Assembly: GCA_041657955.1 (NCBI GenBank)
Contig: JBBABA010000007.1
Span: forward strand, 27,117 to 91,116
Length of the DNA: 64,000 nucleotides
From: Thermoplasmata archaeon
Lineage (GTDB): Archaea > Thermoplasmatota > JASEFT01 > JBBABA01
Direction of reading: 5' to 3'
Part shown: one piece after another, positions 1 to 62,295 of the stretch
How the letters are laid out: each line of letters begins with the position of its first letter
Numbering within the stretch: the first letter of the stretch is position 1
The notes under the pieces: generated by a model
The model's database searches: none
What the model was told of the DNA's origin: nothing
Seen by the model: only the letters and a program-made list of their open reading frames with translations
Position numbers and translations under genes: made by a program

Positions 1-165
1 TATCAGAGGGCGTCGTATCAGACGGTGTTGTATCTGTCGGAGTTGTGTCGGATGGTGTTGTATCAGAGGGCGTTGTATCAGACGGTGTTGTATCTGTCGG
101 AGTTGTGTCGGATGGAGTAGTATCAGTTGGAGTTGTATCCGTTGGTGTTTGATCAGAAGTCGGGC
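1..165 (-). repeat. Coding tandem repeat, 15-bp unit in a 60-bp super-unit, encoding a D-T-T-P-S/T linker
   Basis: Bases 1-60 and 61-120 are nearly identical (a few mismatches). The reverse complement reads TPSDTTPTDTTPSDTTPSD repeatedly. Confidence 0.9.
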
Positions 166-4835: not shown

Positions 4836-7800
4836 ATGTGGGGGTTCTCTGTGAAGAAAAAGGGCGCAATAGGGCTGGGTTATATTTACACATTCATCCT
4901 CTCCGCAGTTTTTTTAGTTGCCATAACTATCACAATTTCTACAATCCTCACAGACATGTCAAAACAATCGATTAAACTTCAATTCCAAGATGTGGCGAAT
5001 AAAATTGCAAATGAGATAGAGGAGGCTTTAATCGCATCATCAAAAAATCCTGGCTCGGAGTATGAGAAAAGAATAGAGCTCCCGAGAAGAATTGCCGGAG
5101 TAGAATATACGATAGAAGCGAGGAATAAAACAGTCTATATTAATTCTACAGAAAACATCAGAGACGTAGGATTGATTAAGGTAAGTGCGTCGCTCACAGG
5201 TTTTGCCGCGGAAAATGCAACATATATAAAGACTATAAACAGCAAGGCCCTTAGCGACGCTGGCTATGTATGGATTAAATACACTTACGACCCAACGACC
5301 AAACGCGGCGTTATCAAGGTTACGGATAATAGACCTGTGAAAACCCATCTTGAAATACAAGTTTCCAGCAACCAAACAGCAGGCACACCATTCGAAGTTA
5401 TTGTGAGGGCGAGGGATGAAAACAACGAGTTCAATGTAGATAGTTATTCCCAAAACGTTATGTTAGCACTCGAAGGTGGCTCGAAGTATAGTAACGATAG
5501 TGGTGTGCAGAGAGGAGTGTATCTTCCAGTAGAATACCACAAATTCACAGAGGCGGATAACGGCCAATATTCCTTTGTTGTAACGGCATACACCGCGGAA
5601 ACGATTACAAGATTTATAGCATACGACGACGGGAACCCATTACTGAAGGTAGATAGCGGCCCTGTACGAATAAGACATGCTGCCCTATTCAATTTTACAA
5701 TAGAAGGCTTACCACCATCGCTAACGCTAGTCGCGGGTGAAACATTTAGCGTTACCATCACCGCAAAGGACAAGTATACCAACATAATAGATGATTATCT
5801 CGGCGCGATTAATTTTATAACAAGCGATACTAAACTCACTACCGTTTTCCCCACTAGTTACAAATTTACAGGGAACGGGACAGGGAAAGATAACGGCATT
5901 CATAAATTTGACGGCATAAAGCTAACCTCTGCGGGCAATCAAACACTCTTTATTTATGGTGACGGGGCACTTATTAGCAACTACACCATAATAGTGGCAC
6001 CCTCAGAGCTATATGGGTTTTTCATTGGAGAAAAGATTGTTAGATGGTATAGCCCATGGTCAAATAGAAAACAAATAACAATTAGCGGATTGTACGAATC
6101 GGGACTTCAGGTTAAAATAACAGTGCCGTATGCAACTGGAATGCAGGACGATTTTGACGACCTGAGATTTACAACCGGTGATGGTGTTACGCCCATACCC
6201 TATTGGATAGAGAGCTATACCGCAAACACCCAGGCAACGGTTTGGGTAAAGGTTCCTGCATTTTCTAGCACTGCCACGACTAATATCTATATGTATTATG
6301 GTAGCCCTACAGTATCTTCGGCGAGCAGCGGGACCGATGTTTTTGAGTTTTTTGACGACTTTAATGATAATACTGCAGATCCTTCTAGATGGATATCGAC
6401 GGGTACAGTGACGGAATCTGGTGGTTATATTACCGTATCCTCAGATTCTAAGATTAAGAGCGAAAAAGACTTTCTAGAAAACACCACACTTGAATTTAAG
6501 ATGAAAACAGAATTAGGGGATGCAACAAATAGATTGGGGTATGCTGGTTACAATAACGATTCTTCATTGAACAATGTGACTTTTTATGATGATGACGATA
6601 GCGGAACTAATATTAATGTTGGAAGTGAAGCGAACGGCGTGTGGTCGGCTGCCACAGGACTCGGAATATCCGATAGAACAACAGCGTGGCAAAAGTATAA
6701 GATAGAAAGACGTGGCCAGGTGGGCAACAGGTTCTATCAAAACAATGCGTTACTTATAGACAAAACTACTAACGTGCCAACCGGAAAATTATGGGTCGAG
6801 TTCAAATCGATAGGTGCATATAACACATACATAGACGACGTAAGGGTTCGCAAGTATGTATCGCCGGACCCGGCTATAATTTTAGGTTCAGTTTTTACCA
6901 TAGGAGAAACGGCTGGCGGGTGGTATAACCCAAATCCATGGACAAACAGAAAGCAGATAGCGATTAGCGGATGGTACGAACCTGGGCTTCAGGTCAAAAT
7001 AACAGTGCCGTATGCAACAGGAATGCAAAGCAATTTTAACGACTTAATGTTTACAACCGATAATGGTTTTACCCCAATTCCACATTGGATAGAAGAAAGC
7101 CCCGTTCCCAACAAACAGGCAACGGCTTGGGTAAAGATTCCTCAATTTTCTAACACCGGTACTACTATTATCTATATGTATTATGGTAATCCTACAGTAT
7201 CTTCTACAGGCAACGGAACCGACGTTTTCGAGTTTTTTGACAATTTTACAGGTCCGGCAGGTGCGCCTCCAGATGCGAATAAATGGGATATAACATGGGG
7301 AGATATAGGCATACGTAGTTTTAATCTTACAGGCACGGGGGAGCTAAAAGGAGACAACACCGCGGGTGCACTTCACAGTGCCGCTTTATTCAGCGCCCCG
7401 ACGATACTGGAGGTCAAGGTTAAGACCGTATCCAATGCTCCAAACGGGCAAATGACTGCTGGCTTTTCTGTTTATCCCCCCTCGACCGTGAATGGTTTTG
7501 GATTCCAAGATTGTCCTGTATCTGACTACACCAGATTGGACAGTGTGTGGAGCCCACTCGATTCGAAAAAAGCCGCCACGAATTATTGGCACCTGATAAG
7601 AATTTCTGCAAAAAACTCTACTGTCGTAAATTTGTATATAGAAAATTTAAGCTCGAACACCACGGTGTATGATGCGGACCTTTCGAATATTATTTCTAGT
7701 GAAAATATAACGCTTGGAAAAAGATATGACGATATGTTCGGCAGCGAGGCCTATGAAACACGCTGGGATTGGGTTAGAATCCGCAAGTACACATCAGTGG

Positions 7801-25800: not shown

Positions 25801-28800
25801 GGACATTTTCAGCGAACTTTATAACGGATAGAATTTTTGAGGCTTGGACAAGAACAGAAGATACAACAAGTCCTAAACAATTTCAGTTAGAAGTGGTTGG
25901 TGGAATTTATAATAATCGCATGTTAGTTGGATTTCATACTAATGGAAAATTTCAATGGTATAACGGAGCGTCATGGGTAGATACAGGGGTGGCATATTCG
26001 ATAAACACATGGTATTTTTATAGAATTGTAACCCACCTTGGTTCACCTTCGACGTATGATTGGTATGTATATGATACAGATATGTCATTAGTATTGAGTA
26101 GTACGAACTTAGGGGTACAAGGAACTGTGGCGAGTATTGGGGCATTTGCCTTTAGTGATGCGGGAGGAATTACTTATTATGATAACCTTCGTGTCCGCAA
26201 ATACGCCTCCATAGAACCAACAGTGAGTTTCACCGCACCTACTGCATATTCCCCAATTACAATCCAAACCCGCACATCTGCAGACAACATTGCATGGACA
26301 GATTGGACAAACGCCACAAACAATGAAAAAGTAGCGAGCGTACCTGGGAGATATATCCAATGGAGAAGCAATTTGTCTAGTGATATGGATATTTCAAAGA
26401 CTCCGATATTGGATTATGTTGAAATCAAGACAAAATTCGCCCAGGACACTGCACCATTAACAATTTCAAATATCGCAAACAGTACGACAGCGGCAACCGC
26501 TACAATAACATGGGGTACGAATAAGTTCTCCAACAGTGTAGTGGAATATGGTCTAACAGAGAGTTATGGGAGCACAACTACAGTAAGCGATTTGGCATTG
26601 AGTCATTGTGTAGTAGTAAACGGTTTGATACATAACATGACATATCATTACAAAGTGACATCATACGATGCATTTGGCACCTATAACACTTCAACCGATT
26701 ATACATTTACAACAACTGATAATCTTGTTTGGATACAAACAACGAAGAACGATTTTGACACGGGAACGTTATATGGTGCAGACGCCAACACAAATCCAGG
26801 AGATGTTTTAATATTAAACGTGCCCCCACTAACGTTTGATGTATCGAATGAATCGCAGTTTATCCAACAAGATGCGGCAAGCGGGACGGACTTTGTTGGT
26901 GGGACTGTGAAGTTGCACTATGTAGATGGAGGGCTTGGTGGGAATATAGCAAGTCAGGCTACTGTAACATTTGATAGGGGCGTAGGTACTCCTTCCGGAA
27001 TAGTTGACGGAAATAAAGTAACTTATTGCTGGGACGATACTGGTGGGATAGATGAAGGAGTTATATTGACTTTTTCATCAGCTAAGTTAGTGGGTAGAGT
27101 TGTCGTTTACAGTCATGACACATATTCATTTCGTGGTGCAAAACTGTTAGTTGATGGTGTAGAAAAATCATCTACGACAGCGACTATAACAAGCAGCTCA
27201 CCTTGGGTAATCAATCTTTCTCCTTACATATATGGTACTACTTTTAAAGTAGTGCGTACAAATGCAGCTTATGACTCAACCTTATCAGAAATTGAGATTT
27301 ATGAGGGTTCTATCATCTACCCAACTTCCCAATCGTATTATGTCACGACATCAAACATAAACCAAATCAACACGTCGAATTGGGTTTCGATTTCAGGTGT
27401 TAGTGTTTTACAGACAACGCCGACTAATACTTTGGTCAAATATCTCGTCTCTTTTGACGGAAGAACCACCTGGAACTATTGGAACGGTGCTTCTTGGCTA
27501 ACTTCGACTTTGGCCAATATCGATACAAACGGGATGAGCAAGAGTACGGTTGAGGGAATAAACGCCACTCAGTGGACATCTTCAGGAGGATTTCAGGCGG
27601 GCACAACAACTACGCTTGATTTTGCTGCCGCATTGAAGACTACGGATTCTGCTCAAACGCCATCAATAAGCCAAATTGTGATTTTTAGGCCTGGTATTTT
27701 AACATCGCCTATATTCGATGCAGGCGAGCCCGCATATTGGACAAATGTCTCTTGGACAGAAACTCTTCCGAGCGGTTCAGATATAACAATCCAAACAAGG
27801 GTGTCAAACGATAGCGCATGGGGCAATTGGTCGTCGCCGGTATCTACCGCCTCTGGTTCCGGATTGCTGAACGGTTCGTCCCCTGCAGTCGGAAGATATA
27901 TTCAATATAGGGTTAATTTAACTGCAACATCTTCCACACCCACCCTAAGCGACATTACGATTAAAGGCGCATTTGAACCTATCTGGACTCAGACTGGTAA
28001 AGAGGACTTCTCCTCAGGAACATTGAACAAAACGGATGTGAACACAAGTGCGGGCGACATAATGCTGTCAACCACGGAAAAACCGGCTTGGTTTGATTCT
28101 TCATGGAACTATAGAAAGTCAATAAACATCACATCAAGCTCCGCGCTTACGAATTACCAGGTGATGCTCTCAAATCCAGTTTACAACGAGGGTAATTTGG
28201 TCGGATGCTGGCATTTCGACGAGGGAAGCGGACAGGCAGCATATGACAATTCGTCGAATTGCAATGTTGGAACATTGGGCTCCGCTGTAGGTGCAGATGC
28301 GAACGATCCGACATGGGCCGATGGGAAGAGTGGAAAGGCGTTGCAGTTTAACGGGGATGATTATGTTAAGTTAGGTTATAGCCCGGATTGGAACTTTGGC
28401 ACAGGTAACTTTGCGATAGTCTTTTGGATAAAAACAACACAGACAGGACAGTATCCGGTGCTGATAAGCAGAGTCAGTGACGAATGGGGAATCTATCTTA
28501 GAAACGGGAATATTCATTTCTATACCCCTACGAAAGGAAACGTTGCTTTCACAAGCGGGACTGTAAATAACGGAGAGTGGAAGCATGTAGCGATCGTAAG
28601 GAGCGGCACGACATTAACTATGTATGTTGACTGCGCCTCGCAATATTCTGACGGCACATGGAACGATGACCTGACTGCAACTACGGAATTGTGGGTTGGT
28701 TATGACGGCTCGAATTCGTATTTCAACGGCATGCTAGACGAGGTTCGCATCTATAAACGTGCGCTGTCCATAGATGAAATCCAACAGCAATTTAACATCT

Positions 28801-29906
28801 CATCAAGAAAGGCAAAATTGGATTACGGAGACATACGATTTACAACTTCAACAGGCGTACCCTTGAGTTATTGGCAACAAGGAGAAAATAAGTTCTGGAT
28901 AAATATGACTTCACTGCCGGCAGGCACTACGATGATATATGCCTATTACGGAAATCCAAGCGCTACGAATGCTGGCAATGGAAATAATGTGTTTATGTTC
29001 TTTGATGACTTCAATGGCGGAGCTATAGACACAAACAAATGGCAATGCAGCAGCATCGGTACATATCAATTTATAGAAAACGGTATGCTAAAGGTGACTG
29101 GTGGCGCTAGTGCATGGACCGACGGAATGTACACAAAACTAACATTCCCACGCGATAATTGGCTGGTAGAATCGGATTATAAGTCAGTAGGCGGAACCTA
29201 TGCGATGTGGGGTGTAAATCAGGCAAACCCTCCAGATTATTATTACGCCAGATACCCATACAACTTTTACCCATACAGCACCACACTTACCATATACGAA
29301 AACGGTGGAAATTACGCTTCAAATATAGGCACCTTCAACGAAAATGTGTGGAACAAACTCAGAATAATGGTGAAAGCGAGTATTGGAGGAGTATATTATA
29401 TTAGTACCGATTGTGGCGCTACTTGGGGCCTGTGTAGGGATTCTGGTTTGGATTCGACCACGCCACTCAGAATAGGATATGCAGGACATAGCCGAGCATT
29501 CTATATCGACAATTGGTTCATACGCAAATACACAACAACTGAGCCGACTTATTTAATTGGTGGAGAAGAAGTCTGTACCGCATACCAGTCTTCCGGAAAT
29601 CTCACCTCGATGAAATATGATGCAGGCAGCGCAGTTAATTTGAGTAAAATATATTGGACTGCAACAACACCAGTCGGAACAACTATAAAAGTCCAGATAA
29701 GGAGCTCGGCAACAGAAGCAGGATTGGATAGTGCAACATGGTACGGGCCAACAGGCACGGAAGATAATTATACAACCAGTGGAGTGACTATTAATTCCAT
29801 CCATAATGGCGATAGGTGGATGCAGTATAAAATATATCTAGAAACCACAGATACAGCACAGACACCAATATTGAGTGAGATAAGAATAACATACATCAAA
29901 CAATGA
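4836..29906 (+). CDS. Giant extracellular multi-domain protein, 8,356 aa (putative adhesin / glycan-binding surface fibre)
   Basis: Single ORF with no in-frame stop over 25,071 nt. It has one N-terminal hydrophobic helix and no C-terminal anchor (ends ...ILSEIRITYIKQ). Domain motifs are listed as sub-features below. An alternative in-frame GTG at 4851 is preceded by the G-run gtggggg (4838-4844). Confidence 0.85.
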   Translation: MWGFSVKKKGAIGLGYIYTFILSAVFLVAITITISTILTDMSKQSIKLQFQDVANKIANEIEEALIASSKNPGSEYEKRIELPRRIAGVEYTIEARNKTVYINSTENIRDVGLIKVSASLTGFAAENATYIKTINSKALSDAGYVWIKYTYDPTTKRGVIKVTDNRPVKTHLEIQVSSNQTAGTPFEVIVRARDENNEFNVDSYSQNVMLALEGGSKYSNDSGVQRGVYLPVEYHKFTEADNGQYSFVVTAYTAETITRFIAYDDGNPLLKVDSGPVRIRHAALFNFTIEGLPPSLTLVAGETFSVTITAKDKYTNIIDDYLGAINFITSDTKLTTVFPTSYKFTGNGTGKDNGIHKFDGIKLTSAGNQTLFIYGDGALISNYTIIVAPSELYGFFIGEKIVRWYSPWSNRKQITISGLYESGLQVKITVPYATGMQDDFDDLRFTTGDGVTPIPYWIESYTANTQATVWVKVPAFSSTATTNIYMYYGSPTVSSASSGTDVFEFFDDFNDNTADPSRWISTGTVTESGGYITVSSDSKIKSEKDFLENTTLEFKMKTELGDATNRLGYAGYNNDSSLNNVTFYDDDDSGTNINVGSEANGVWSAATGLGISDRTTAWQKYKIERRGQVGNRFYQNNALLIDKTTNVPTGKLWVEFKSIGAYNTYIDDVRVRKYVSPDPAIILGSVFTIGETAGGWYNPNPWTNRKQIAISGWYEPGLQVKITVPYATGMQSNFNDLMFTTDNGFTPIPHWIEESPVPNKQATAWVKIPQFSNTGTTIIYMYYGNPTVSSTGNGTDVFEFFDNFTGPAGAPPDANKWDITWGDIGIRSFNLTGTGELKGDNTAGALHSAALFSAPTILEVKVKTVSNAPNGQMTAGFSVYPPSTVNGFGFQDCPVSDYTRLDSVWSPLDSKKAATNYWHLIRISAKNSTVVNLYIENLSSNTTVYDADLSNIISSENITLGKRYDDMFGSEAYETRWDWVRIRKYTSVEPPVTFGGVPVGNVFSMKVTALDAFENIKTDYNGGVNITSTDTRSGVEAYVSINGGSQQYPSIYGDRIVWQDNRYGNSEIFVFDSRFGYTKRLTSNSGSVYDQFPKIYGDKVVWERNSGQDCDIYMYDLALDSNWDGKPNYFENLVDDYAIKPIIIGLGDQQRPSIYENNVVYQNHSGSNWEICVYNITTGITTTIISDTNQRSNPSIYGNKIVWQDKRNGNWDIYMNDTSTETIITSNPSSNEELPAIYGDIIVWQQTNGIGKYDILAYNLTSNEYIRITGDQVDKNEKNPQIYCDRVVWEDYRYEDSEIYSYNITTANEKRITSDPSAQEAPVVYGDKILWQDSRGGNYDIYYNISGTSFPMNYTFTVDSFYGEGKDNGVHVFTNFTLITTGIQTIKVRNETPEKITENVSDGINVVPSSLYRYAIETDTSVTAGKPFDVTITAYDAYNNVKTDFYGEVLTIDSANDDIATSTTLPKPFVNGKATLSVNLTKATEQTDNSITVRVNQILGTPHPNIDIESPSIGVVADVVSGLTVTGLQNTSVNSFSNIITIKTNDSYGNPSDVSEGITIDLQTTSGTGKFYDTSICFNNTANPGEKHELTTAMNLNNSRIYGDRIVWMENKGADWDIYVSTYSLPENTPTRLTTDSSDQKYPWIYGNKVVYQSNKNGNWDIYLYDLSTSIEQRITTNAYDQMYPVIYGDRIVWQDFRNTDAQGYHQWDIYMYHIPSDTEIQVTNDNSNQTYPKIWGDEIVYQNYTSYYWQIYNYTISSGIAKQITADPWNHTSATVTNTTYGHRIIAWVTEGKDVYGYNETNSTEFTITAHSNSEENISAYEDYIVYQNYTGEHWQIFRYNLSNSTWIQIINDNDNYDHTYPAVYESIVTWTGPIPITSVQIPIDDDSISFYYKDNATGQYTITASTSNGWAVTPPPITVTPAPVSQIVVSSSSTTTQAGTSQAIKIELKDAWGNPSNATVDTTLNVATDSNTGQFSLDNITWSDYTQSYSVNVPVNTSDVTIYYKDDGAGTPVISITGGSSTIDGKPVSWSGGTTQQTVVASIITSLSIDTSPQTIVAGIPSTPIIISTVDQFGNPCNVTKTNTYLQTTQLDFAIENGTTLTNIDANATYHSAGELWLAGTGAPKLFGGSDKDIVADDYFLSTYTTLIDTRNPINRTGVISYYNVSAQTAGACKLKIFRSVGVGSEINTMSILSTTLPSSRESTSAIWNGTGDTYIFGGFTGSSYLDAIVKFNSSTGTVTTLSSKLPSGRSGTSAIWDGTNVYIFGGYTGSYLDQIVKFNPSTGTVITLTATLPSGRSGTSAIWDGTNVYIFGGYNSDGNLDEIVKFNPGTETVTTLSAKLPSGRTNTSAVWDGTNTYIFGGYNDTSYYLDQIVKFNPSTETATTLSAKLPSGRTNTSAVWDGTNAYIFGGYTGSYLDQIVKFNPSTGTVTILTATLPSGRSGTSAIWDSACAYIFGGSGGGTNQIVTAMKIGSYELVGESDANNTIVGDNMFIVYWGGQPSPIPVRKGDFIGIYQETTQTKMKSSGGALKAKVGIDITTTTSADTWESYPYIMKVNATGTGVYFYSTGYITSTPFDTLSVSNFTTISWTSYVPTGTSLKLQIRTAESNESLQTAEWYGPTGTDSYYIVNGALNSIHNGSRWIQYNAIFESPGNFDTPILSDVTILFSYQNTTLNLSSTSQYGRFSLSNIEWVNVTSVNVTNMWPDSKTNVTIYYNDTLTGTPTITISSPSITGNYSQQETIIPAGISKTVFITPPTSSFIDEPSDVITIQTQDEYSNPKNVGSTTIFNLSSDSVGAYSFSLSKTSWNPITTVTILANTNTTNFYYKDPEQGNPTITVWEYPHNTPNDWINGTQSQIIMMPIWTQTTKTDWNNGTLEHVDVNTSEGDVLMANEFFLDVNTTGLWHFNESSGFVAYDSSGNNNNGSLYGNTTIDNCESTIGWSSNQYDFYSDFAGTTIDTNKFRYSGGPHAQNEILTTGSSSAAWGTNYFYSKQTFARIDGLTFQGRMQTGTAAQNTMFGWQTSTGTDYGTMPHAFYVPDANTIYYYENGGGTATGYSFTDGVWYDVKIVLKTAGAKYYYKLTTSDTWILVAETSTRTETSLTIGFDHHTGYCYMDNWAVGTAMSLNSGIKIEGSNGLNLLKISTTTSDSYYYKTISATNMNEKILNVSLYIKDSTALGKILRIQIYVADSSSYNWYVRKDIQPSALAIGWNNLSFDLATPSGTTGIPLLYATCLIRIDIDTNNNADTFAAGDIVMDLWRLPGSRWAEGKFKSGLSFDGVDDYADLSDTPFDFSSSFSIEAWVKTPVASSSNCILWKTNSYGIGYGNTGAGGIANQFGFHIYSGTAWTTANAGETVALNTWHHVVVVFNNDLDTIKIYVNGVEKGSASYTSVASNSAYNFHIGNYDFSPDGGYFNGTIDEVATYNRALTASEIYNNYLNSSKNKITSAIFDAGQTVYLSQISWNETVVNNTDIKTSVRTSMDGSSWSDWMPTVSTSSGSGINNGTNYTGYRYKKPINIINSGSALTDYQVLIQNPVYNESNLTGSWHFNEGTATYTPDSSGNLNDGTLNNGPFYADNGAWGKALNFDGNNDYISISSQPSLNPTSAITIEFWVNFDTLSNDDYLLWKINQYGIGYSINAAGFTLNKLNFAVMSGGAWKVVPSITTPTTGQWYHLVGTYNGTIQKFYINGVLDNSLSWSGTIDTNTNNIGIGAYATPGGYMDGSIDEVRIYSRALNQSEIGDLYNISTRKAKLDYSDVRFYSADGVELNYWQQGENKTWVKIPSLPTGTTTIYAYYGNPNVTSASNGNNVFMFFDDFTGSSIDTNKWQCSNYDTATKYQFVENNMLKVTGGTGSWNTGMYTKQTFARGKWLVEADLKPYSSTSHQLMWGVDKASPATYSYDQYPYNYYYYSSYIDVYEYSAQRVDNVEPFTLNIWAKLRINVKESSGATYYISNNGGLTWEQQYDSSTDSTTPLRIGYAGCDMGFYIDNWFIRKYASVEPTVSMGGEVLECVSSSASGYPPNVNQSMFNTSYPASGRYIQFKAELISTTNTTPVLSDVNITYSKKPVWTQTGKEDFAKGTLTNLDMNTTEGELKLYTWWNNGWHYRVKVIVNTGYASRINQTIKTRINFTAILSGLGDSGTIDQNSIRVINYRGEEVDSNVTRWIFAGDGMVKWKLRGYHEKETNYVYFIYFDITENGAKSAPTGYSLPNDYVLATHATVSGAGGAGGGIYIAHIDGNGNVINDALKWTKLSPPGNQDYTTLAMADLDNDGDYDFINCVEVSNLLQVHLNKGDETFVTSWSTTSFYSDWSSIVLGDFNEDGWMDFASFLDIGGDANSDFYVFLNNKDGSFTQKFVDAGAGWDARRAISGDFDNDNNIDVIFGSVNKGLEVFWGDGTGNFKGGGFVSDWSGDFHGMWAVDYDRDGYLDIFLRGNNNGKVIKNLGNRTFNYSAGATFLNTGIDWGGGNVFDLNNDGLTDIALGSWTSGGSQLFICYGNTANWFNNSVVFADLSTKDVVDQYFMEWGGPEYAKGLNITVGVANKSSNINGSIVSNILDAGQNVKWENISWSAEANAPTTLYYIKTRTSPDLVSWSNWSSIYTNPTRSPITSPNARYIQWKVELTTADPTMTPILKGVTLFYSLAFSDTTLPTITAVQANEITWDSRQVKWWTDEFANSTVRYGPSESYTDTIYQDNYTLEHGVPLTNLKVNRTYHYNISSSDYNGNVANTTDDTFVTNQFATWLQTTKDDFTAGTLDKIDINSSAGDVKVKSGETSGTITSQIYDTNDWATWKNVTSNISLPWTQTSKTDFGAGTLNNTDINSSAGDVKLNMDPSRGTGKDGALTVTAANTIVNIYTYTSADYAPGAAAIVVNSATGFSTGDEVLIIQLQGTNVGAYEFKTITVSGNTFTLNSTLTKNFYGSGSNRNNVIRVPHYTDVTVSGSGSITASAWDGTKGGVVVFRATGTVGVLASSSVVLGNQIDLKGSGCRVASSAGYYSNIAGNVWYMWDYGDTTPLYFPINLIDDQETSGSNAYYWMENEATSYIYIDLTYPRWLGKAEINNYNTGSDRGNTRYTIQYNPTYFDASKVPSDMGGSWVTVTASASSPYSNPGTMNAQTTGFVEFDAPVYTRYVRIYAERMTVTYLTLNEINLWEAAVPSIDASGKGYRGGSADGAAWSSTYAYTGESWNGVGARGPGVNQGGGGGSMIATGGAGAAHATNGLAGAYCHSSYNYTGTASTNQYGTTSLSTIYPGSGGGGGGDGYSGPNGSPANSWGRYDSSGTRGDGGAGGGIIMIFANTITVTGKIKADGGYGQPGYISQTNCIGAGGGGGGSGGSIYLLSSTISITGAGSITAVGGGGGSAYTSGYKYVVDGSWAQDPIGGNGGNGRIRLDYTTLTGATNPTAYIGPSPPSPPSPTGYIRSQVFDAGVVAQWDSINWTENLPTGTDITIQTSTSQDCISWTEWSSYTIATGEKITSPNARYIQWNATLTTTDSSKTPILSDVIVTMMLTNAVQSRTSPDNITWSDWTAIVNNQTSSPSGRCFQWRAQLTLSASGETPILHEVLVNYTYLTETDDPIISNVASSNIEATKATIMWDTNEFTNATLEYGPTISYGITINITTFKSGHSATLTGLTRNSVYHYKVKSYDYFGNDAVSGDYTFTTANTFDIYHTTKDDWASGNLSNVDINTTVGDVKLVLPNATGDLTSIIFDAGDKVYLSNVTWNKGTPTGIGGAGIIVQVRTSMDNITWSDWTTATSTSGFGPMNGSAPMSGKYFQYKANLTGNAVPNSGFENDWANWSTRDSWSSIALDDYYSGTRAARLNAVGRGAETDVYQNDAEVFGVSASTQYTLYAYVKQKAGTGNYKITIDWLTNAKAHISYSNDWTGTNKPQVWTLHTWTGTSPANAAYAKIILGAADGNEFLFDDVRFVGGNSSTTHILNDITIRGSYDTLTSMQTTKEDFNTGTKDNSNNTELAESGSLKLNERIGTTNLALGKPVLSSEGHYSGVAGGVWYTSGTIEYHTFNLVDGDKSTAYTAYWLEDNPSDTSNLYVDLLEKKWIGKIYLNEASQHGTTWSYRIYYNTNDWNGVWSTISSATWAMVDSADCQGSMNQNEVRSIYLNTPVYTRFINVTIVKISGDYAVLNEIEVYEYLKPNNTTYTSPVCDAGQQVVWDNINWKSTTSNWYSSSWTNRTVIRITNDGGTLTDYQIKLIVPYMSGMQTDFDDIRFTTDDGTVLIPYWIGNYTAGSNAVVWVRVPTISAFGTTTIYMYYGNSGIVSASGFDNTFAQPNSVNGLKLWLKADTIIGLTDGSAVTTWTDSSGNGNSVTQSTESKKPVYKTNILNGKPAVRFTAAASQTMTTSTNFPAPVTVIYVARLTGGANARMLSGLSNNWLLGFYGGTKNDVYFEGWVYDSTVTADTNWYIFSTVITGTGVNSKVYDGGTLFAANQAGITGPNGLSLSGHLAGSEFSNGEIVEVIVYNRSLSDIERQSIERILSAKYNLYLSAPVPYYAFDITPEWYNSAWSSRKPIIITNPSSLVTDIPVKIILPYQTGMQTNFNDIRFTTNDGKTEIPYWIENYTASTQITLWVKVPVLYAMTNSTIYAYYGNGAVGNVSSSVNVWGSGLAGFWRFNDGSGQIANDTSPNGNDGILGSTSGADANDPIWVDGKLGKALQFDGSNDYVETLESPSLAVTTQCTVEAWFRTTYSGQEKIVRLKGASDNGVEMEVSGTKKARVSAYLGSWVNVEYSAGPDLNDGNWHHIVCVVDGTSMKLYVDGTYINSGTGSANLNTGNAKVRIGLHPSGGLPFNGPIDEVKVYNRALTLDEIKAHYASYVVNPTSEWYSLSWYDYSWSQKKPVWVINSGSELTNYQVRITVNYESGMLGNFSDLRFTKNDGVTLIPYYIQNYTAGTQATVWVNISLLPASTNTMIYMYYGNPSAASASNGTNTFEFFDDFEDGSIADWGQASGAGGSVSTAFVKTGVYSLKQDTTTIYAELYRTFSANFITDRIFEAWTRTEDTTSPKQFQLEVVGGIYNNRMLVGFHTNGKFQWYNGASWVDTGVAYSINTWYFYRIVTHLGSPSTYDWYVYDTDMSLVLSSTNLGVQGTVASIGAFAFSDAGGITYYDNLRVRKYASIEPTVSFTAPTAYSPITIQTRTSADNIAWTDWTNATNNEKVASVPGRYIQWRSNLSSDMDISKTPILDYVEIKTKFAQDTAPLTISNIANSTTAATATITWGTNKFSNSVVEYGLTESYGSTTTVSDLALSHCVVVNGLIHNMTYHYKVTSYDAFGTYNTSTDYTFTTTDNLVWIQTTKNDFDTGTLYGADANTNPGDVLILNVPPLTFDVSNESQFIQQDAASGTDFVGGTVKLHYVDGGLGGNIASQATVTFDRGVGTPSGIVDGNKVTYCWDDTGGIDEGVILTFSSAKLVGRVVVYSHDTYSFRGAKLLVDGVEKSSTTATITSSSPWVINLSPYIYGTTFKVVRTNAAYDSTLSEIEIYEGSIIYPTSQSYYVTTSNINQINTSNWVSISGVSVLQTTPTNTLVKYLVSFDGRTTWNYWNGASWLTSTLANIDTNGMSKSTVEGINATQWTSSGGFQAGTTTTLDFAAALKTTDSAQTPSISQIVIFRPGILTSPIFDAGEPAYWTNVSWTETLPSGSDITIQTRVSNDSAWGNWSSPVSTASGSGLLNGSSPAVGRYIQYRVNLTATSSTPTLSDITIKGAFEPIWTQTGKEDFSSGTLNKTDVNTSAGDIMLSTTEKPAWFDSSWNYRKSINITSSSALTNYQVMLSNPVYNEGNLVGCWHFDEGSGQAAYDNSSNCNVGTLGSAVGADANDPTWADGKSGKALQFNGDDYVKLGYSPDWNFGTGNFAIVFWIKTTQTGQYPVLISRVSDEWGIYLRNGNIHFYTPTKGNVAFTSGTVNNGEWKHVAIVRSGTTLTMYVDCASQYSDGTWNDDLTATTELWVGYDGSNSYFNGMLDEVRIYKRALSIDEIQQQFNISSRKAKLDYGDIRFTTSTGVPLSYWQQGENKFWINMTSLPAGTTMIYAYYGNPSATNAGNGNNVFMFFDDFNGGAIDTNKWQCSSIGTYQFIENGMLKVTGGASAWTDGMYTKLTFPRDNWLVESDYKSVGGTYAMWGVNQANPPDYYYARYPYNFYPYSTTLTIYENGGNYASNIGTFNENVWNKLRIMVKASIGGVYYISTDCGATWGLCRDSGLDSTTPLRIGYAGHSRAFYIDNWFIRKYTTTEPTYLIGGEEVCTAYQSSGNLTSMKYDAGSAVNLSKIYWTATTPVGTTIKVQIRSSATEAGLDSATWYGPTGTEDNYTTSGVTINSIHNGDRWMQYKIYLETTDTAQTPILSEIRITYIKQ
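4866..4949 (+). other. N-terminal hydrophobic helix resembling an archaeal class III (type IV pilin-like) signal peptide
   Basis: (MWGFSV)KKKG-AIGLGYIYTFILSAVFLVAITITISTIL. A short basic head ending in K-G/A is followed by a ~28-residue hydrophobic stretch with a VAIT motif like pilin/archaellin N-termini. Confidence 0.45.
5340..6005 (+). other. Three Ig-like (bacterial Big/invasin-type) domains
   Basis: Recurrent motif TAGTPFEVIVRARDENNEF / VAGETFSVTITAKDKYTNIIDDY. Further copies lie at ~7800-7950, 8880-9520, 10460-11100 and 12850-13400. Confidence 0.5.
6042..7800 (+). other. Two tandem units of DUF2341 plus a ConA-like/glucanase-like domain
   Basis: WSNRKQITISG..GLQVKITVPYATGMQDDFDDLRFTTGDGVTPIPYWIESY..ATVWVKVP..TNIYMYYG, followed by VFEFFDDF...VRVRKY. 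The second copy starts ~6921. Confidence 0.6.
7960..8866 (+). repeat. Seven-blade beta-propeller (archaeal surface-protein 'IYGDRIVWQD' repeat type)
   Basis: Seven ~42-aa repeats: PSIYGDRIVWQDNRYGNSEIFVFD, PKIYGDKVVWERNSGQDCDIYMYD, ... VVYGDKILWQDSRGGNYDIYYN. Confidence 0.7.
9620..10455 (+). repeat. Second seven-blade beta-propeller of the same repeat type (more diverged)
   Basis: SRIYGDRIVWMENKGADWDIYV, WIYGNKVVYQSNKNGNWDIYLYD, VIYGDRIVWQDFRN...WDIYMYH, KIWGDEIVYQNY..., AYEDYIVYQNYTGEHWQIFRYN, AVYESIVTWTG. Confidence 0.65.
11430..12255 (+). repeat. Six Kelch-type blades, partly near-identical at DNA level
   Basis: LPSGRSGTSAIWDGTNVYIFGGY...LDQIVKFNPSTGTV..L occurs six times. A 69-nt block at 11577-11645 recurs at 11718-11786 (141-bp offset). 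Blades 3/4 and 2/5 also share long near-identical runs. Confidence 0.8.
14620..15150 (+). other. LamG / Laminin_G_3-type lectin-fold domain
   Basis: GKFKSGLSFDGVDDYADL...SIEAWVK...TWHHVVVVFNNDLDTIKIYVNGVEKG...FNGTIDEVATYNRALTASEI. Confidence 0.6.
15364..16858 (+). repeat. Composite module A: DUF2341 split by a nested LamG domain, plus a ConA-like domain (paralog of 28103-29570)
   Basis: YKKPINIINSGSALTDYQVLIQNPVYNESNL | LamG (GKALNFDGNNDYISI..WYHLVGTYNG..KFYINGV..DEVRIYSRAL) | YSDVRFYSADGVELNYWQQGENKTWVKIP..IYAYYGNP | FMFFDDF...YIDNWFIRKYASVEP. Confidence 0.6.
17560..18330 (+). repeat. FG-GAP/VCBS (integrin-alpha-like) repeat region
   Basis: Repeated Ca-binding-type loops: ADLDNDGDYDF, GDFNEDGWMDF, GDFDNDNNIDV, VDYDRDGYLDIF, DLNNDGLTDI. 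Confidence 0.7.
18766..19040 (+). other. Fn3-like domain (copy 1 of 3; others at 21541-21812 and 26446-26722)
   Basis: PTITAVQANEITWDSRQVKWWTDEFANSTVRYGPSESY...LTNLKVNRTYHYNISSSDYNGN. Copies 2 and 3 keep the pattern W.T(N/D)(E/K)F.N(A/S).(L/V)EYG...Y and YHYKV.SYD.FGN. Confidence 0.55.
19758..20286 (+). other. Discoidin (F5/8 type C)-like domain, apparently nested inside the Gly-rich beta-helix domain
   Basis: INLIDDQETS..YYWMENEATSYIYIDL..RWLGKAEINNYN...YTRYVRIYAE...LNEINLWE. Confidence 0.5.
20300..21005 (+). other. Glycine-rich repetitive segment (putative beta-helix)
   Basis: GKGYRGGSADG...GGGGGS...GSGGGGGGDGYSG...GDGGAGGGIIMIFANTITVTGKIKADGGYGQPG...GAGGGGGGSGGSIYLLSSTISITGAGSITAVGGGGGSA...GGNGGNGRIRLDY. 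The segment is locally GC-rich. Confidence 0.8.
22173..22610 (+). other. CBM4/9-like carbohydrate-binding module
   Basis: VPNSGFENDWANWS...YSGTRAARLNA...YTLYAYVKQ...ILGAADGNEFLFDDVRFVG. Confidence 0.45.
22783..23265 (+). other. Discoidin (F5/8 type C)-like domain, copy 2 (a third, weaker copy at 26935-27306)
   Basis: NLALGKPVLSSEGH...FNLVDGDKSTAYTAYWLEDNPSDTSNLYVDLLEKKWIGKIYLNE...YTRFINVTIVKISGDYAVLNEIEVYE. Copy 3 ends TLSEIEIYE. Confidence 0.5.
23375..25620 (+). repeat. Three intact DUF2341 domains alternating with two LamG-type domains
   Basis: DUF2341 copies at ~23375-23640, 24375-24635 and 25355-25620, e.g. WSSRKPIIITNPSS..PVKIILPYQTGMQTNFNDIRFTTNDGKTEIPYWIENY. LamG domains at ~23690-24310 and 24680-25300 (GKALQFDGSNDYVE...NWHHIVCVVDGTSMKLYVDG...DEVKVYNRAL). 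Confidence 0.6.
28103..29570 (+). repeat. Composite module B: DUF2341 split by a nested LamG, plus a ConA-like domain (paralog of 15364-16858)
   Basis: YRKSINITSSSALTNYQVMLSNPVYNEGNL | LamG | YGDIRFTTSTGVPLSYWQQGENKFWINMT..IYAYYGNP | FMFFDDF...YIDNWFIRKYTTTEP. Collinear with module A over ~480 aa. Confidence 0.6.
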
Positions 29907-32900: not shown

Positions 32901-33156
32901 AGGGATTGTTGCAGGCACCGTTACTCTCATCGTATTGATACCCGTTTTTTACATCATAACAGTTAGAAAAGCGCCAACGAAGAAAGGATTAGTTTCAGAA
33001 ACGAGCAAACCCATAAAAAAGGTCGTGAAAAAAAGAAAACGGCCGAAAACCAGATTTTGCGCTCACTGCAAAAAGGAGATTCCGCGAGAGCTGATAGAAG
33101 TCGGGTGGGCAGAATGCCCCCATTGCGGAAAAGAGTGGGAGTCTCCTCATAAATAA
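29923..33156 (+). CDS. Type I membrane protein with ~10 PKD/Ig-like repeats and a cytoplasmic zinc-ribbon tail
   Basis: N-terminal signal-anchor, then ten ~95-aa repeats each ending W.(L/I)TV.DVNR.P. Each repeat holds a NYTF.(S/T)NYSSAG.YN(I/V)T motif (PKD-like Y..G.Y). TM helix at ~32885-32965. The tail is CAHC...CPHC (33052-33135). The gene starts 16 nt after the giant gene stop. Confidence 0.8.
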   Translation: MTRHKTLVISIALFVVVTMCTAFLISLETNQHQFMKDSDTHNTYRNIVSVRGPLPPVIENYTPASDSITISEGDSQIFNITASVVENATSNFTWYLDGQLVSASENYTSDNYTFVSNYSSAEGGSAGVYNIIVYLVYNNISGSITVNISRPWSILVNDVNLTSMVTLAPTPAVNTTITEEENRTFYTNTSNIDTNKANISMKWYLNGEIVSTSDNYTFVANYSSSGVYNVTLNITDGQHYRISEWLLTVTDVHRLTSVYPVLTYPAINENESYTFNITTSSPSIYPPNITWYVNGIPQSFLENYTFVSNYTSAGAYNITANVVDMESNFTYTWNLTVSDVNCLQLISTTLVVGNQTFNENQTYMFVPDVAWLNWTSLSFKWYLNGTLVSTSQNYTFATNYSSASAYVLRLNIADSNYSADFTWNITVVDTPRPPIIQSADPSINDCLLLEGSSQTFNIIVTDTTDYSPSIYWYLDGNLVSTSTSFVFETNYSSAGFYNLTVNVTGSEGNATKNWFAEVRDLNRPPITTRSPVTDNITINETTNVIFTIRATDLDGDMITINWSLDGVLIPSAYETYSYIPNYVSAGIHNVTVNISDGKSKIVYEWNITVMNVNRKPTIINYIPTSSPTIIECENRTFNISAVDPDGDQTITNWYLDDILVAANSTAYEFDTDYSSAKTYVLIARITDGELEVSHSWLITVLNNNRPPEIKSVTPANPNISISDGDTVTFTAESSDADGTVPIMKWYLDDALVGIGTTCVYNADFNSSGTRIFTLLVTDGEDSERNVWWMNITDINRVPIIYKTMPSATPVTITGGEMNFSVEVMDLDNDALSFYWYLNGTAVSNFKNYTMQFNRSSSKIYNLTVIVSDNKSNTSYYWTLYVNISNKRPIATIVSINPSNATLKQNIEFVGNGTDEDGIVTGYQWRSSIDGILNNSKNFNTSNLSPGKHAIYLKVKDNDSEWSDEVNSTVSINLSQETTTPAAPPQKVNNIITIGIVAGTVTLIVLIPVFYIITVRKAPTKKGLVSETSKPIKKVVKKRKRPKTRFCAHCKKEIPRELIEVGWAECPHCGKEWESPHK

Positions 33157-33394
33157 AATTAAACCATATGATCGTTTACCGGGGAAAGAGCATTTGCGGC
33201 CGCGTGAAGTTTAAGGAACCCCGTGAATTTAAAAGAAGGCATTGTACCGTTTATGAAGATGACCCACTAGTAAACTTCTTATATGTGGTAGATAAATTAG
33301 GTGAAATTTCCAATAATTGTAATCTATGCATAGTAGCATATATATGGGTGATAACAGTTGAGTGTAAGTCGAATGAAGTGGATGAGGAAAATAG

Positions 33395-60279: not shown

Positions 60280-60283
60280 ATCT

Positions 60284-62215: not shown

Positions 62216-62295
62216 TTTTACACCTGTGAATTATCTTAATATTTGTCAGTATTACTCAAATTCTTCAATAGCGTATCTCATCATGTATGTGCCTA

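What the first reader, a model, noticed from the sequence alone, without database searches (positions are those of the whole stretch)
4836..29906. Intact 25-kb gene encoding an 8,356-aa mosaic surface protein
One ORF without a single in-frame stop covers about 39% of the window. At ~110 Da per residue the product would be roughly 0.9 MDa. I recognise at least ten extracellular binding folds: Ig-like, DUF2341, ConA-like, LamG, two 7-blade propellers, a 6-blade Kelch propeller, FG-GAP, Fn3, discoidin, CBM-like and a Gly-rich beta-helix. No catalytic domain is visible. There is only one hydrophobic helix, at the extreme N-terminus, and no C-terminal anchor. Archaeal proteins of this size and composition are rare and essentially uncharacterised. 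The architecture suggests a cell-anchored or pilin-like fibre that binds glycans, particles or other cells.
Basis: partly seen in the sequence, partly recalled or inferred. Interest (0 to 1): 0.85.

Follow-up and report, generated by a model that had tools for sequence, protein, structure and literature searches.

The report
Giant pilin-headed archaeal surface adhesin
A real 25-kb gene in an uncultured Thermoplasmata archaeon encodes a ~0.9-MDa, probably sugar-coated surface protein whose first ~170 residues are a complete type-IV-pilus "minor pilin" module, so it is by far the largest pilin-like protein found in these searches and is probably a pilus- or membrane-tethered array of sugar-binding (lectin-like) domains that sticks the cell to surfaces or other cells.

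Summary
The ORF is real: 4836..29906 (+), 8,356 codons, no stop. The other five frames carry 290-552 stops. Three independent metagenome assemblies reproduce it base for base. The one exception is an in-frame 141-bp Kelch unit (8,356 vs 8,309 aa) bounded by a 68-bp perfect repeat.

There is no catalytic domain, one N-terminal helix and no C-terminal anchor.

New result: residues 1-168 are a complete DUF7266 module with a class III (prepilin) signal, KKKG|AIGLGYIYTF. Elsewhere DUF7266 genes, stand-alone or fused to at most 2,207 aa, sit in prepilin-peptidase/DUF7289/DUF7266/PilB3/PilC operons.

The giant is an orphan copy, about 4x larger than any relative. It is co-operonic with a 1,077-aa PKD protein and a 2,449-aa AglB oligosaccharyltransferase, and it is sequon-enriched.

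Best reading: an N-glycosylated, extreme "modular pilin" adhesin, held by its pilin helix in the membrane or at a pilus tip. Host: an uncultured Thermoplasmata archaeon with no close genome.

This is a new variant of a known kind. Interest is moderate to high.

The parts
4836..29906 (+). Giant gene, 8,356 codons (8,309 in one other assembly)
   Evidence: independent contigs
4836..5339 (+). aa 1-168: complete DUF7266 pilin-like head. Class III signal (KKKG|AIGLGYIYTF, predicted cut after G10), a 58-residue alpha-helix (aa 13-70) and a beta-sheet head.
   Evidence: Pfam 35.7-39.5 bits vs cut-off 27.6. 131 relatives, all with the module at the N-terminus. Motif statistics. End-to-end alignment. 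AF2 pLDDT 80.6.
5340..6149 (+). aa 169-438: Ig-like (Big_1/Filamin-like) stalk
   Evidence: Only homologues P0001-P0004, which carry PF02369/PF16640/PF00630; weak Pfam hits
6150..7802 (+). aa 439-989: two DUF2341 + ConA/LamG-like pairs
7944..8876 (+). aa 1037-1347: 7-bladed TIGR04275 (Methanosarcina-type) beta-propeller
9594..10535 (+). aa 1587-1900: second 7-bladed TIGR04275 beta-propeller (5 blades by HMM, 2 degenerate blades by eye)
   Evidence: sequence
11361..12197 (+). aa 2176-2454: 6-bladed Kelch propeller, encoded by the gene's only tandem DNA array (period 141 bp, 76% matches)
11577..11717 (+). One Kelch unit (47 codons) absent from the ENA contig. It is bounded by a 68-bp perfect direct repeat (11577-11644 / 11718-11785).
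13788..16835 (+). aa 2985-4000: LamG x4, DUF2341 x1, interspersed WSDW sandwiches
17514..18425 (+). aa ~4227-4530: FG-GAP/VCBS-type propeller repeats
19338..21077 (+). aa 4835-5414: Gly-rich AgmC_N-like putative beta-helix with an F5/8-type-C (discoidin) domain inserted at aa 5013-5141
22872..23237 (+). aa 6013-6134: second F5/8 type C (discoidin) domain
23478..26219 (+). aa 6215-7128: three DUF2341 + three LamG modules
28347..29897 (+). aa 7838-8354: LamG, DUF2341, ConA-like and a terminal WSDW sandwich. No C-terminal anchor. Diverged paralogue of the aa ~3745-4008 block (66% DNA identity).
21069..21356 (+). Reference copy of the unannotated ~90-aa 'WSDW' beta-sandwich (11 copies, starting at aa 2572, 3445, 3983, 4548, 5415, 5505, 5699, 6151, 7112, 7621, 8255). 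A 37-aa WxQTxKxDFxxGTL motif also occurs 9 times.
29923..33156 (+). Operon partner, 16-nt gap after the giant: 1,077-aa PKD/Ig-repeat membrane protein with 66 sequons, a TM helix at aa 986 and a cytoplasmic CxxC...CxxC zinc-ribbon tail
33168..33398 (+). 76-aa ORF of unknown function. It overlaps the AglB start by 4 nt and is called as a gene in two independent annotations.
33395..40744 (+). 2,449-aa AglB/STT3 oligosaccharyltransferase: ~10 TM helices, WWDYG at aa 592, CarboxypepD_reg/SdrD_B repeats and a C-terminal TM helix
1051..4458 (-). Divergent 1,135-aa sequon-rich surface protein with a C-terminal TM anchor. A paralogous 887-aa gene starts at 925 and runs off the left edge of the window.

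Best explanation
The gene encodes an extreme 'modular type IV pilin'. A complete DUF7266 minor-pilin-like module (aa 1-168) carries about 8,190 aa of non-catalytic binding modules: lectin-like LamG/ConA and DUF2341 pairs, discoidin domains, four to five beta-propellers, a beta-helix, and Ig/Fn3-like spacers.

Proposed sequence of events:
1. The precursor is inserted into the membrane through its class III signal (inferred).
2. A prepilin peptidase of the PibD/FlaK type cuts after Gly10 (inferred from the family motif).
3. The mature hydrophobic alpha-helix keeps the protein in the membrane, ready for assembly. From there a PilB3/PilC-type machine encoded elsewhere in the genome may lift it onto the tip of a type IV pilus. 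The tip is the only position where so bulky a cargo fits; this is inferred by analogy with bacterial modular pilins.
4. The ectodomain is N-glycosylated by the AglB encoded in the same operon (inferred from operon structure and sequon enrichment).
5. The multi-lectin/propeller array binds glycans, particles or other cells (inferred from domain content).

Shown here: the ORF, its domains, the homology and completeness of the head, the family's pilus-operon context, and the operon with AglB.
For: Gene reality; identical sequence in independent assemblies.

The head is DUF7266:
- It scores above Pfam's gathering threshold.
- An exhaustive HMMER search finds 131 representatives, with the module always at the N-terminus. 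59 of them are <200 aa and 35 are >=800 aa; the maximum is 2,207 aa.
- The giant aligns over the full length of stand-alone members and keeps the family-invariant residues G15, F20, S23, A24, L27, P72, Y91.

Class III pattern: G/A at -1 in 91% of relatives, a charged n-region, then a conserved G-Y/F five to six residues downstream. This is comparable with the experimentally studied processing sites DA|VS, RA|VS and KG|QV listed in PMC4371748.

Fold: AF2 gives a 58-residue N-terminal helix plus a beta head, pLDDT 80.6.

Family context:
- KaiC-like, DUF7289, DUF7266, PilB3-type T2SSE, T2SSF x2.
- The closest small relative, P0006 (41% identical), lies next to a Peptidase_A24/Arc_PepC_II prepilin peptidase, DUF7289, PilB3 and PilC.
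- In 12 of the 14 metagenome loci that have >=1 kb of upstream flank, the DUF7266 ORF (164-1,918 aa) directly follows a DUF7289-like gene. T2SSE and/or T2SSF are present in 6 loci.
- Other large fusions carry Beta_helix/NosD, CBM96 and DUF2341.

Precedent:
- Bacterial modular pilins carry grafted vWA or ConA-like lectin modules and are modelled at the tip (PMC8179133).
- Large DUF2341 proteins in archaeal T4P loci have been predicted to be tip adhesins (PMC4858521).

Glycosylation:
- The gaps are 16 nt (giant to PKD gene) and 11 nt (PKD gene to orf76), and orf76 overlaps the AglB start by 4 nt.
- AglB has an STT3 domain and a WWDYG motif.
- The giant has 179 N-x-S/T sequons against 135 +/- 10 after shuffling. 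Cytoplasmic neighbours have 0-3 each.
Against: - The giant is not in a pilus operon. About 84 kb of the contig is accessible (the window, ~9 kb to its left and ~6 kb to its right). It holds no DUF7289-like gene, no other DUF7266 gene, no PilB3-type ATPase and no prepilin peptidase.
- The only type IV filament genes nearby, 6.6 kb upstream, are genuine archaellum genes. ArlH, ArlI and ArlJ score above the NCBIfam equivalog cut-offs, and an ArlG-like protein scores below its cut-off.
- Foldseek finds no significant PDB match for the head model, so the 'pilin fold' rests on topology alone.
- The giant has Gly at +3, which is unusual for the family, though P0005 shares it.
- It is unclear how a 0.9-MDa ectodomain could be exported and carried by a filament.
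- Makarova et al. place such minor pilin-like proteins at the pilus base rather than the tip.
- There are no expression data.
Confidence: 0.55

Rival explanations
1. Membrane-tethered glycocalyx or matrix protein. The DUF7266 head, cleaved or not, serves only as an N-terminal membrane anchor. The 0.9-MDa glycosylated ectodomain forms a protective and adhesive coat on a possibly wall-less Thermoplasmata cell, or is shed into a biofilm matrix. No filament is involved.
For: - Orphan position, away from any pilus operon or partner pilin genes.
- Embedded among other anchored, sequon-rich surface proteins and an oligosaccharyltransferase.
- Sulfolobus bindosome proteins show that class III signals are used on large non-pilin surface proteins (PMC4371748).
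- Halomucin-type giant archaeal glycoproteins exist (my own knowledge, not checked here).
Against: - The head is a complete, well-conserved DUF7266 domain, with family-invariant residues retained through its beta head. It is not merely a hydrophobic helix, which argues that family-specific interactions are kept.
- All other members with readable context are in pilus operons.
Confidence: 0.3
2. Base-anchored accessory of a type IV filament. DUF7289 and DUF7266 would be pilus counterparts of the archaellum stator pair ArlF/ArlG, membrane-anchored at the base of the machine. The giant would then be a stator-like anchor carrying a huge extracellular extension, possibly working with the neighbouring ArlG-H-I-J archaellum genes.
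For: - The position of DUF7289/DUF7266 just before the ATPase mirrors arlF/arlG before arlH-I-J.
- Makarova et al. place minor pilin-like proteins near the pilus base.
- An archaellum arlG-H-I-J block lies 6.6 kb upstream on the same strand, and its ArlG-like protein is itself extended by Ig/filamin repeats.
Against: - Profile comparison finds no relationship between DUF7266 and the ArlG-like protein (probability 0.5%).
- The local ATPase is only 34.5% identical to the PilB3-type ATPase of DUF7266 operons.
- Two opposite-strand genes separate the archaellum block from the giant.
Confidence: 0.1
3. Assembly artefact: a chimeric or repeat-collapsed contig that fuses several smaller surface-protein genes.
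For: - Short-read metagenome origin.
- The Logan assembly breaks inside the Kelch array, and two assemblies disagree by one 141-bp unit.
Against: - Outside the Kelch array the gene has no internal DNA repeat better than 81% identity over 634 nt, and no exact repeat of 100 bp or more.
- Three assemblies are 100% identical over all shared parts, and between them they cover the whole gene.
- A 25-kb stop-free frame cannot arise by chance joins.
- GC3 matches the neighbours.
Confidence: 0.03

Closest known systems
Bacterial modular type IV pilins (Streptococcus sanguinis PilB with a vWA module and PilC with a ConA-like lectin module; PMC8179133, PMC9934059)
   Same: An N-terminal pilin module joined by a short linker to non-pilin adhesive modules. 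LamG_3 (PF13385) is among the grafted modules. A bulky cargo implies tip display.
   Different: - Those are bacterial, with the IPR012902 N-methylation motif.
- They are a few hundred residues long; the largest in that survey was 860 aa.
- They are encoded in the pilus locus and were tested experimentally.
- The giant is archaeal, about 10x longer, an orphan gene, and untested.
DUF7266-headed fusion proteins (600-2,207 aa) in PilB3/PilC operons of uncultured archaea
   Same: A homologous head (25-41% identity). Cargo of beta-helix, CBM or DUF2341 modules. No C-terminal anchor was seen in those inspected.
   Different: - They directly follow a DUF7289-like gene inside a pilus operon, together with other large pilin-like proteins.
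- The giant is about 4x longer, has a different cargo set, lacks those partners nearby, and is instead coupled to a PKD protein and an AglB.
Large DUF2341 proteins of archaeal T4P loci (arCOG03508, Methanococcus Epd-type systems), predicted tip adhesins by analogy with PilY1 (PMC4858521)
   Same: DUF2341-containing, large, archaeal, and predicted to be adhesive pilus accessories.
   Different: Those lie in the pilus locus. Whether they carry pilin heads was not examined here. No homology beyond DUF2341 was tested.
Sulfolobus bindosome substrate-binding proteins (class III signals on non-pilins; PMC4371748)
   Same: A class III signal on a protein much larger than a pilin, with surface retention through the processed N-terminal helix.
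   Different: Bindosome proteins are solute-binding proteins of ~4x pilin size with a dedicated Bas system. There is no sequence relation.
Halomucin of Haloquadratum walsbyi (9,159 aa; from my own knowledge, not checked here)
   Same: A giant, secreted, glycosylation-prone archaeal surface protein of similar size.
   Different: Mucin-like repeats, no pilin-type head known, different phylum.

Membership tests
DUF7266 (Pfam PF23928) | Match to the family HMM above the gathering score | tested here: met
   35.7 bits (1,000-aa tile) and 39.5 bits (180-aa query) against a cut-off of 27.6. My own family HMM gives 118 bits.
DUF7266 (Pfam PF23928) | Module at the extreme N-terminus and complete, comparable to stand-alone ~150-aa members | tested here: met
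   All 131 relatives match at their N-terminus. The giant's aa 1-168 align end to end with 12 complete small members and share the invariant residues.
DUF7266 (Pfam PF23928) | Encoded directly after a DUF7289-like gene in a PilB3/PilC operon | tested here: not met
   This holds for the relatives. No DUF7289, PilB3-type ATPase or second DUF7266 gene occurs in the ~84 kb accessible around the giant.
Archaeal type IV pilin-like proteins (class III signal peptide substrates) | Short charged n-region, G/A at -1, then a hydrophobic H-domain at the N-terminus | tested here: met
   MWGFSVKKKG|AIGLGYIYTFILSAVFLVAITITIS. The family has G/A at -1 in 91% of members. The pattern is comparable to the known sites in PMC4371748.
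Archaeal type IV pilin-like proteins (class III signal peptide substrates) | Cleavage by a PibD/FlaK/EppA prepilin peptidase | not testable with these tools
   A peptidase gene (Peptidase_A24 + Arc_PepC_II) lies beside the closest small relative (L058). None lies in the accessible part of this contig.
Archaeal type IV pilin-like proteins (class III signal peptide substrates) | Lollipop fold: a long N-terminal alpha-helix packed on a beta-sheet head | tested here: inconclusive
   The AF2 model has a helix at aa 13-70 plus 7 strands, pLDDT 80.6. Foldseek against the PDB gives no hit with E <= 0.001.
Archaeal type IV pilin-like proteins (class III signal peptide substrates) | Incorporation into a filament | not testable with these tools
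   Needs microscopy or biochemistry.
Modular type IV pilins (sensu Raynaud et al. 2021) | A pilin module followed by domain(s) not specific to pilus biology | tested here: met
   The head (aa 1-168) is followed by Ig-like, DUF2341, LamG, propellers and more.
Modular type IV pilins (sensu Raynaud et al. 2021) | Bacterial IPR012902 prepilin N-methylation motif | tested here: not met
   No Pfam or NCBIfam hit to bacterial prepilin motifs at the N-terminus. The head is of the archaeal type, so the resemblance is in design, not in family membership.
PilY1/PilC-type pilus tip adhesins | C-terminal PilY1 beta-propeller (IPR008707 / PF05567) | tested here: not met
   No such hit in the Pfam tiles. Only DUF2341 is shared, according to PMC4858521.
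AglB/STT3 oligosaccharyltransferase (operon partner at 33395..40744) | Multi-TM STT3 domain plus a WWDYG motif | tested here: met
   STT3 scores 84.8 bits against a cut-off of 24.5. There are ~10 TM helices and WWDYG at aa 592. TIGR04154 scores 231 bits, below its 450 cut-off.

The most novel reading that the evidence does not exclude
The protein really is assembled onto a type IV pilus. That would make it a ~0.9-MDa tip subunit, roughly ten times larger than any described modular pilin. It would be serviced in cis by its own giant oligosaccharyltransferase and a PKD/zinc-ribbon membrane partner, and in trans by a pilus machine encoded elsewhere. In effect it would be a retractable or tethered multi-lectin 'fishing line' for capturing polysaccharide particles or partner cells in an uncultured Thermoplasmata lineage.
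Probability: 0.25. Interest if true: 0.75.

Novelty: new variant of a known kind. Interest (0 to 1): 0.55.

Why it matters
Modular pilins explain how simple type IV filaments acquire new functions, but the described cases are bacterial and small. This gene shows the same design pushed to an extreme in archaea: a complete minor-pilin module carrying about 8,200 residues of lectin-like and propeller domains, four times larger than any other member of its family among 1.84 billion representative proteins.

- If it is displayed on a pilus, it sets a new upper bound on what type IV machinery can export and carry.
- If it is only membrane-tethered, it shows pilin heads being recycled as anchors for a glycocalyx in a lineage that may lack a cell wall.

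Either way it gives the uncharacterised families DUF7266 and DUF7289 a concrete, testable role as pilus-operon pilin-like proteins. It also links a dedicated giant AglB to a single giant substrate, a useful handle on archaeal N-glycosylation. Finally, it flags a candidate adhesion determinant for an uncultured Thermoplasmata group that has no close genome.

Tried and rejected
A 5,000-aa homologue query timed out.
- Scanning GTDB species genomes with the C-terminal 5,000 aa found no relative.
- The N-terminal 420 aa and 2,000 aa gave only domain-level hits (28-43% identity, at most 23% coverage) and no orthologue.
- Synteny next to Orc1/Cdc6 in 24 related Thermoplasmata loci shows no giant gene and no giant AglB.
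- I first read the upstream T2SSE/T2SSF cluster as the giant's pilus machine. NCBIfam shows it is the archaellum (ArlH/I/J above the equivalog cut-offs), so I downgraded it.
- Foldseek of the head and of the WSDW module gave no significant PDB match. PDB sequence search of the N-terminus gave nothing.
- The DUF7266 head is not related to ArlG by hhalign. Its similarity to DUF7289 is limited to the signal region.
- A search for homologues of the canonical operon partners, the prepilin peptidase and DUF7289 in the window and its flanks found none.
- A literature search for DUF7266 and for the sample accessions found nothing.
- Two of my iterative Ig-like HMMs (IgB and IgC) drifted across domain boundaries and were discarded.
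- The TafC and AgmC_N NCBIfam hits are far below their cut-offs. They reflect only a shared LamG or Gly-rich fold, not membership.
- There are no tRNA genes in the window.
- No archaeosortase-type C-terminal sorting model hit the neighbouring anchored proteins.
Full report
OBSERVATION

The window has one ORF from 4836 to 29906 on the + strand, with an ATG start and 8,356 codons. The other five frames of the same stretch carry 290-552 stop codons, and their longest open run is 210 codons. From base composition, the chance of 8,356 stop-free codons is about 10^-233. GC3 (0.42) matches the neighbouring genes (0.41-0.47), so the gene looks native. The product would weigh 915 kDa, have pI 4.7 and be rich in T, S, G and N. 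The only strongly hydrophobic 19-residue windows start at aa 10-24, one marginal window lies at aa 4955, and there is no C-terminal anchor.

IS IT AN ASSEMBLY ARTEFACT?

The downstream and upstream neighbours were found on independent contigs:
- ENA ERZ27247322:k141_226942 (135 kb).
- ENA ERZ27249422:k141_326213 (6.2 kb).
- Two Logan contigs of SRR8449812.

All are 100% identical to the window over their shared parts, with one exception. The 135-kb ENA contig lacks exactly 141 bp (window 11577..11717, 47 codons), which is one Kelch blade. Its product is therefore 8,309 aa and otherwise identical over the parts compared.

The indel is bounded by a 68-bp perfect direct repeat, and the Kelch units are otherwise 70-85% identical. 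The two Logan contigs end at window 11606 and start at 12146, inside the same array. This array is the only tandem repeat in the gene (period 141 bp). Elsewhere the best internal DNA similarity is 81% over 316 nt or 77% over 634 nt, and there is no exact repeat of 100 bp or more.

So the gene as a whole is not repeat-limited. Only the Kelch copy number (6 vs 5) is unsettled, and both versions stay in frame.

DOMAINS

Ten overlapping 1,000-aa tiles were scanned against Pfam and NCBIfam, and within-protein HMM iteration followed. They give:
- DUF7266, aa 15-106.
- An Ig-like stretch, aa 169-438. It is supported only through four homologues that carry Big_1/Big_3_5/Filamin.
- 7 DUF2341 and 11 LamG/ConA-like domains, of which 7 are strong.
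- Two TIGR04275 propellers of seven blades each, aa 1037-1347 and 1587-1900.
- Six Kelch blades, aa 2176-2454.
- FG-GAP_3 repeats, aa ~4227-4530.
- A Gly-rich (21% G) AgmC_N-like region, aa 4835-5414, interrupted by a discoidin domain.
- A second discoidin domain, aa 6013-6134.
- Three to four Fn3-like domains, just under Pfam's cut-off.
- Two recurrent unannotated elements: a ~90-aa 'WSDW' module (11 copies) and a 37-aa WxQTxKxDFxxGTL motif (9 copies).

The WSDW module models confidently as a beta-sandwich (pLDDT 86.5). It resembles CBM32/discoidin and phage jelly-rolls only weakly (E >= 0.015, TM 0.4-0.6).

About 62% of the protein is assigned to modules. Relaxed searches of ten of the eleven gaps of at least 90 aa (aa 5792-5944 was not scanned) found only faint Ig-like signals and no enzyme domain.

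THE N-TERMINUS

DUF7266 is above Pfam's gathering score. An exhaustive HMMER search of 1.84 billion representatives with aa 1-170 found 131 relatives:
- Every one carries the module at its N-terminus.
- 59 are shorter than 200 aa and 35 are at least 800 aa.
- The longest is 2,207 aa.

Across the family, the residue aligned with Gly10 of the giant is G or A in 91%. It is preceded by K/R/D/N and followed by a hydrophobic stretch with a conserved G-Y/F. This is the class III (prepilin) signal pattern. Compare the studied archaeal processing sites DA|VS, RA|VS and KG|QV in PMC4371748.

In the giant's own subgroup the spacing is [KRD][GA]|xxxxGY, for example KG|YVQIGYIYTF in P0006. This predicts cleavage at KKKG|AIGLGYIYTF.

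The giant's first 168 residues align end to end with complete stand-alone DUF7266 proteins and keep the invariant residues. The AF2 model (pLDDT 80.6) has a 58-residue helix (aa 13-70) followed by a beta-sheet head, the gross shape of a type IV pilin. Foldseek finds no significant PDB match, so the fold assignment stays inconclusive.

WHAT DUF7266 PROTEINS TRAVEL WITH

Stand-alone members lie in operons of the form KaiC-like ATPase, DUF7289, DUF7266, PilB3-type T2SSE, then T2SSF x2. One of these operons is followed by a 1,765-aa FG-GAP/BNR protein.

The giant head's closest small relative, P0006 (41% identity), lies in the order: Peptidase_A24/Arc_PepC_II prepilin peptidase, a 166-aa ORF, DUF7289, DUF7266, two further ORFs, PilB3, PilC x2.

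A metagenome scan with a DUF7266 alignment returned 19 loci:
- In 12 of the 14 loci with at least 1 kb of upstream flank, the DUF7266 ORF (164 to 1,918 aa) directly follows a DUF7289-like gene.
- T2SSE and/or T2SSF genes are present in six loci.
- The other large ORFs of these operons also start with class III-like signals.

Large fusions carry Beta_helix/NosD, CBM96, DUF2341 and even a HINT domain. DUF7266 is thus a pilin-like component of euryarchaeal type IV pilus loci that is often used as a carrier for big extracellular modules.

THE GIANT'S OWN CONTEXT IS DIFFERENT

It is preceded by a divergent 1,135-aa surface-protein gene. It is followed by three tightly packed genes: a 1,077-aa PKD/Ig membrane protein with a cytoplasmic zinc ribbon (16-nt gap), a 76-aa ORF (11-nt gap), and a 2,449-aa AglB (4-nt overlap). 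The AglB has about 10 TM helices, a WWDYG motif, CarboxypepD_reg repeats and a C-terminal TM helix.

The giant has 179 N-x-S/T sequons against 135 +/- 10 after shuffling, and the PKD protein has 66 against 22 +/- 4. Cytoplasmic neighbours have 0-3 each.

On the same contig, 6.6 kb upstream and on the same strand, lie an ArlG-like protein, ArlH, ArlI and ArlJ. NCBIfam identifies these as archaellum proteins: ArlH scores 247.7 against a cut-off of 215, FlaI 734 against 550, and ArlJ 560.8 against 550. This is not a PilB3-type pilus system; the two ATPases are 34.5% identical.

The ~84 kb that could be read contains no DUF7289, no second DUF7266 gene, no PilB3-type ATPase and no prepilin peptidase. 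The right flank is phosphate metabolism.

HOST

Orc1/Cdc6, NucS, PTH2, aTrm56, AglB and the archaellum genes mark an archaeon. The best Orc1/Cdc6 matches among 185,579 species genomes are uncultured Thermoplasmata / 'Methanomassiliicoccales' MAGs at no more than 57% identity. None of them has a giant gene or a giant AglB beside Cdc6. No close relative of the giant exists in the genome collection. The protein collection holds only domain-level relatives.

MECHANISM

Best explanation (confidence 0.55): an N-glycosylated, extreme modular type IV pilin-like adhesin. The steps are:
- Membrane insertion via the class III signal.
- Cleavage after G10.
- Retention by the hydrophobic helix.
- Possibly, extraction onto a pilus tip by a PilB3/PilC machine encoded in trans.
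- N-glycosylation by the operon's AglB.
- Multivalent binding through the lectin-like and propeller modules.

All of these steps are inferred. What is shown is the ORF, the domain map, the homology and completeness of the head, the family's pilus-operon context, and the operon with AglB.

Tip placement follows the steric argument made for bacterial modular pilins (PMC8179133). It also follows the earlier prediction that large DUF2341 proteins in archaeal T4P loci are tip adhesins (PMC4858521).

Main rival (confidence 0.3): the head is only a membrane anchor for a glycocalyx or matrix protein. The orphan position and the bindosome precedent favour this reading.

A base-anchored, stator-like role (confidence 0.1) is suggested only by gene order; hhalign finds no DUF7266-ArlG relationship.

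Mis-assembly is unlikely (confidence 0.03).

COMPARISON AND NOVELTY

In design the protein matches modular pilins. In family it is a DUF7266 member by sequence, but it fails the family's usual operon context.

It differs from all relatives in four ways:
- Size: 3.8x the next largest DUF7266 protein, and about 10x the largest bacterial modular pilin in the 2021 survey.
- Cargo composition.
- Detachment from the pilus locus.
- Coupling to a giant AglB.

Giant archaeal surface proteins as such are known: halomucin (from memory), and proteins over 10,000 aa in Asgard archaea according to the 2023 giant-gene preprint. I therefore rate it a new variant of a known kind, with interest 0.55.

Noticed in passing
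window 33395-40744 (+): The AglB/STT3 oligosaccharyltransferase is 2,449 aa. Its catalytic part has ~10 TM helices and WWDYG at aa 592. It is followed by ~1,800 aa of CarboxypepD_reg/SdrD_B/'choice-of-anchor T'-like repeats and a second, C-terminal TM helix. From memory, AglB proteins are usually about 600-1,000 aa.
   Followed up: partly
L035 16258-21476 (same contig, 1.8-7 kb left of window position 1): An archaellum block arlG-like/arlH/arlI/arlJ lies on the giant's strand. The ArlG-like protein is 389 aa because Ig/filamin-like repeats are appended to the ~140-aa ArlG domain. No archaellin or arlF is immediately upstream; a DegT aminotransferase sits there instead.
   Followed up: partly
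window 1051-4458 (-) and 1-925 (-): Two paralogous large surface proteins (1,135 aa and 887 aa) are divergent from the giant. They have near-identical N-termini (MR[FL][YF]KFW[KR]NTQ...) and C-terminal anchors ending FLFRR[RK]ELL. No Pfam family scores above threshold.
   Followed up: no
window 29923-33156 (+): The PKD/Ig protein after the giant has the highest sequon density in the window (6.1 per 100 aa). After its TM helix it has a lysine-rich cytoplasmic tail with a CxxC...CxxC zinc ribbon, which is unusual for a surface protein.
   Followed up: no
window 49937-51718 (+) and 53886-55217 (+): Two surface proteins (NosD/Big and PKD) share a nearly identical C-terminal tail, FIPFA..(TM)..LAVLIDLTRRKK. 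It looks like a sorting or anchoring signal, but no NCBIfam CTERM model hit it.
   Followed up: partly
window 51819-53885 (+): The 688-aa subtilase ORF matches only positions 126-288 of the 288-position Peptidase_S8 profile, starting at its residue 31. The N-terminal catalytic part seems to be missing, or the start is mis-set.
   Followed up: no
giant aa 2085-7751 (window ~11088-28088): A 37-aa motif, WxQTxKxDFxxGTLxxxDxNxxxGDV, recurs 9 times, usually just before a new module block. It has no database family, and it may be a linker or a strand-swap element.
   Followed up: no
P0046 (2,071 aa, DUF7266-headed relative): A HINT/intein-like domain (PT-HINT, 59.6 bits) sits in the middle of a pilin-headed beta-helix protein. 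This hints at autoproteolytic release or splicing in some family members.
   Followed up: no
L039, L041, L037, L046, L048, L052: Canonical DUF7266 operons encode four to five proteins with class III-like signals. Several are 1,000-1,900 aa, so they look like whole sets of large pilin-like proteins rather than one adhesin.
   Followed up: partly
L004 (CP070751.1): One of the nearest relatives by Orc1/Cdc6 is titled as a 5.16-Mb Thermoplasmata MAG chromosome, which is large for the class.
   Followed up: no
window 55515-64000 and L056: The right part of the window is a phosphate/polyphosphate island: Pst-like ABC transporter, PhoU-like genes and PPK2, with PPK1 and a Ppx-GppA/CHAD gene just beyond the edge.
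   Followed up: no
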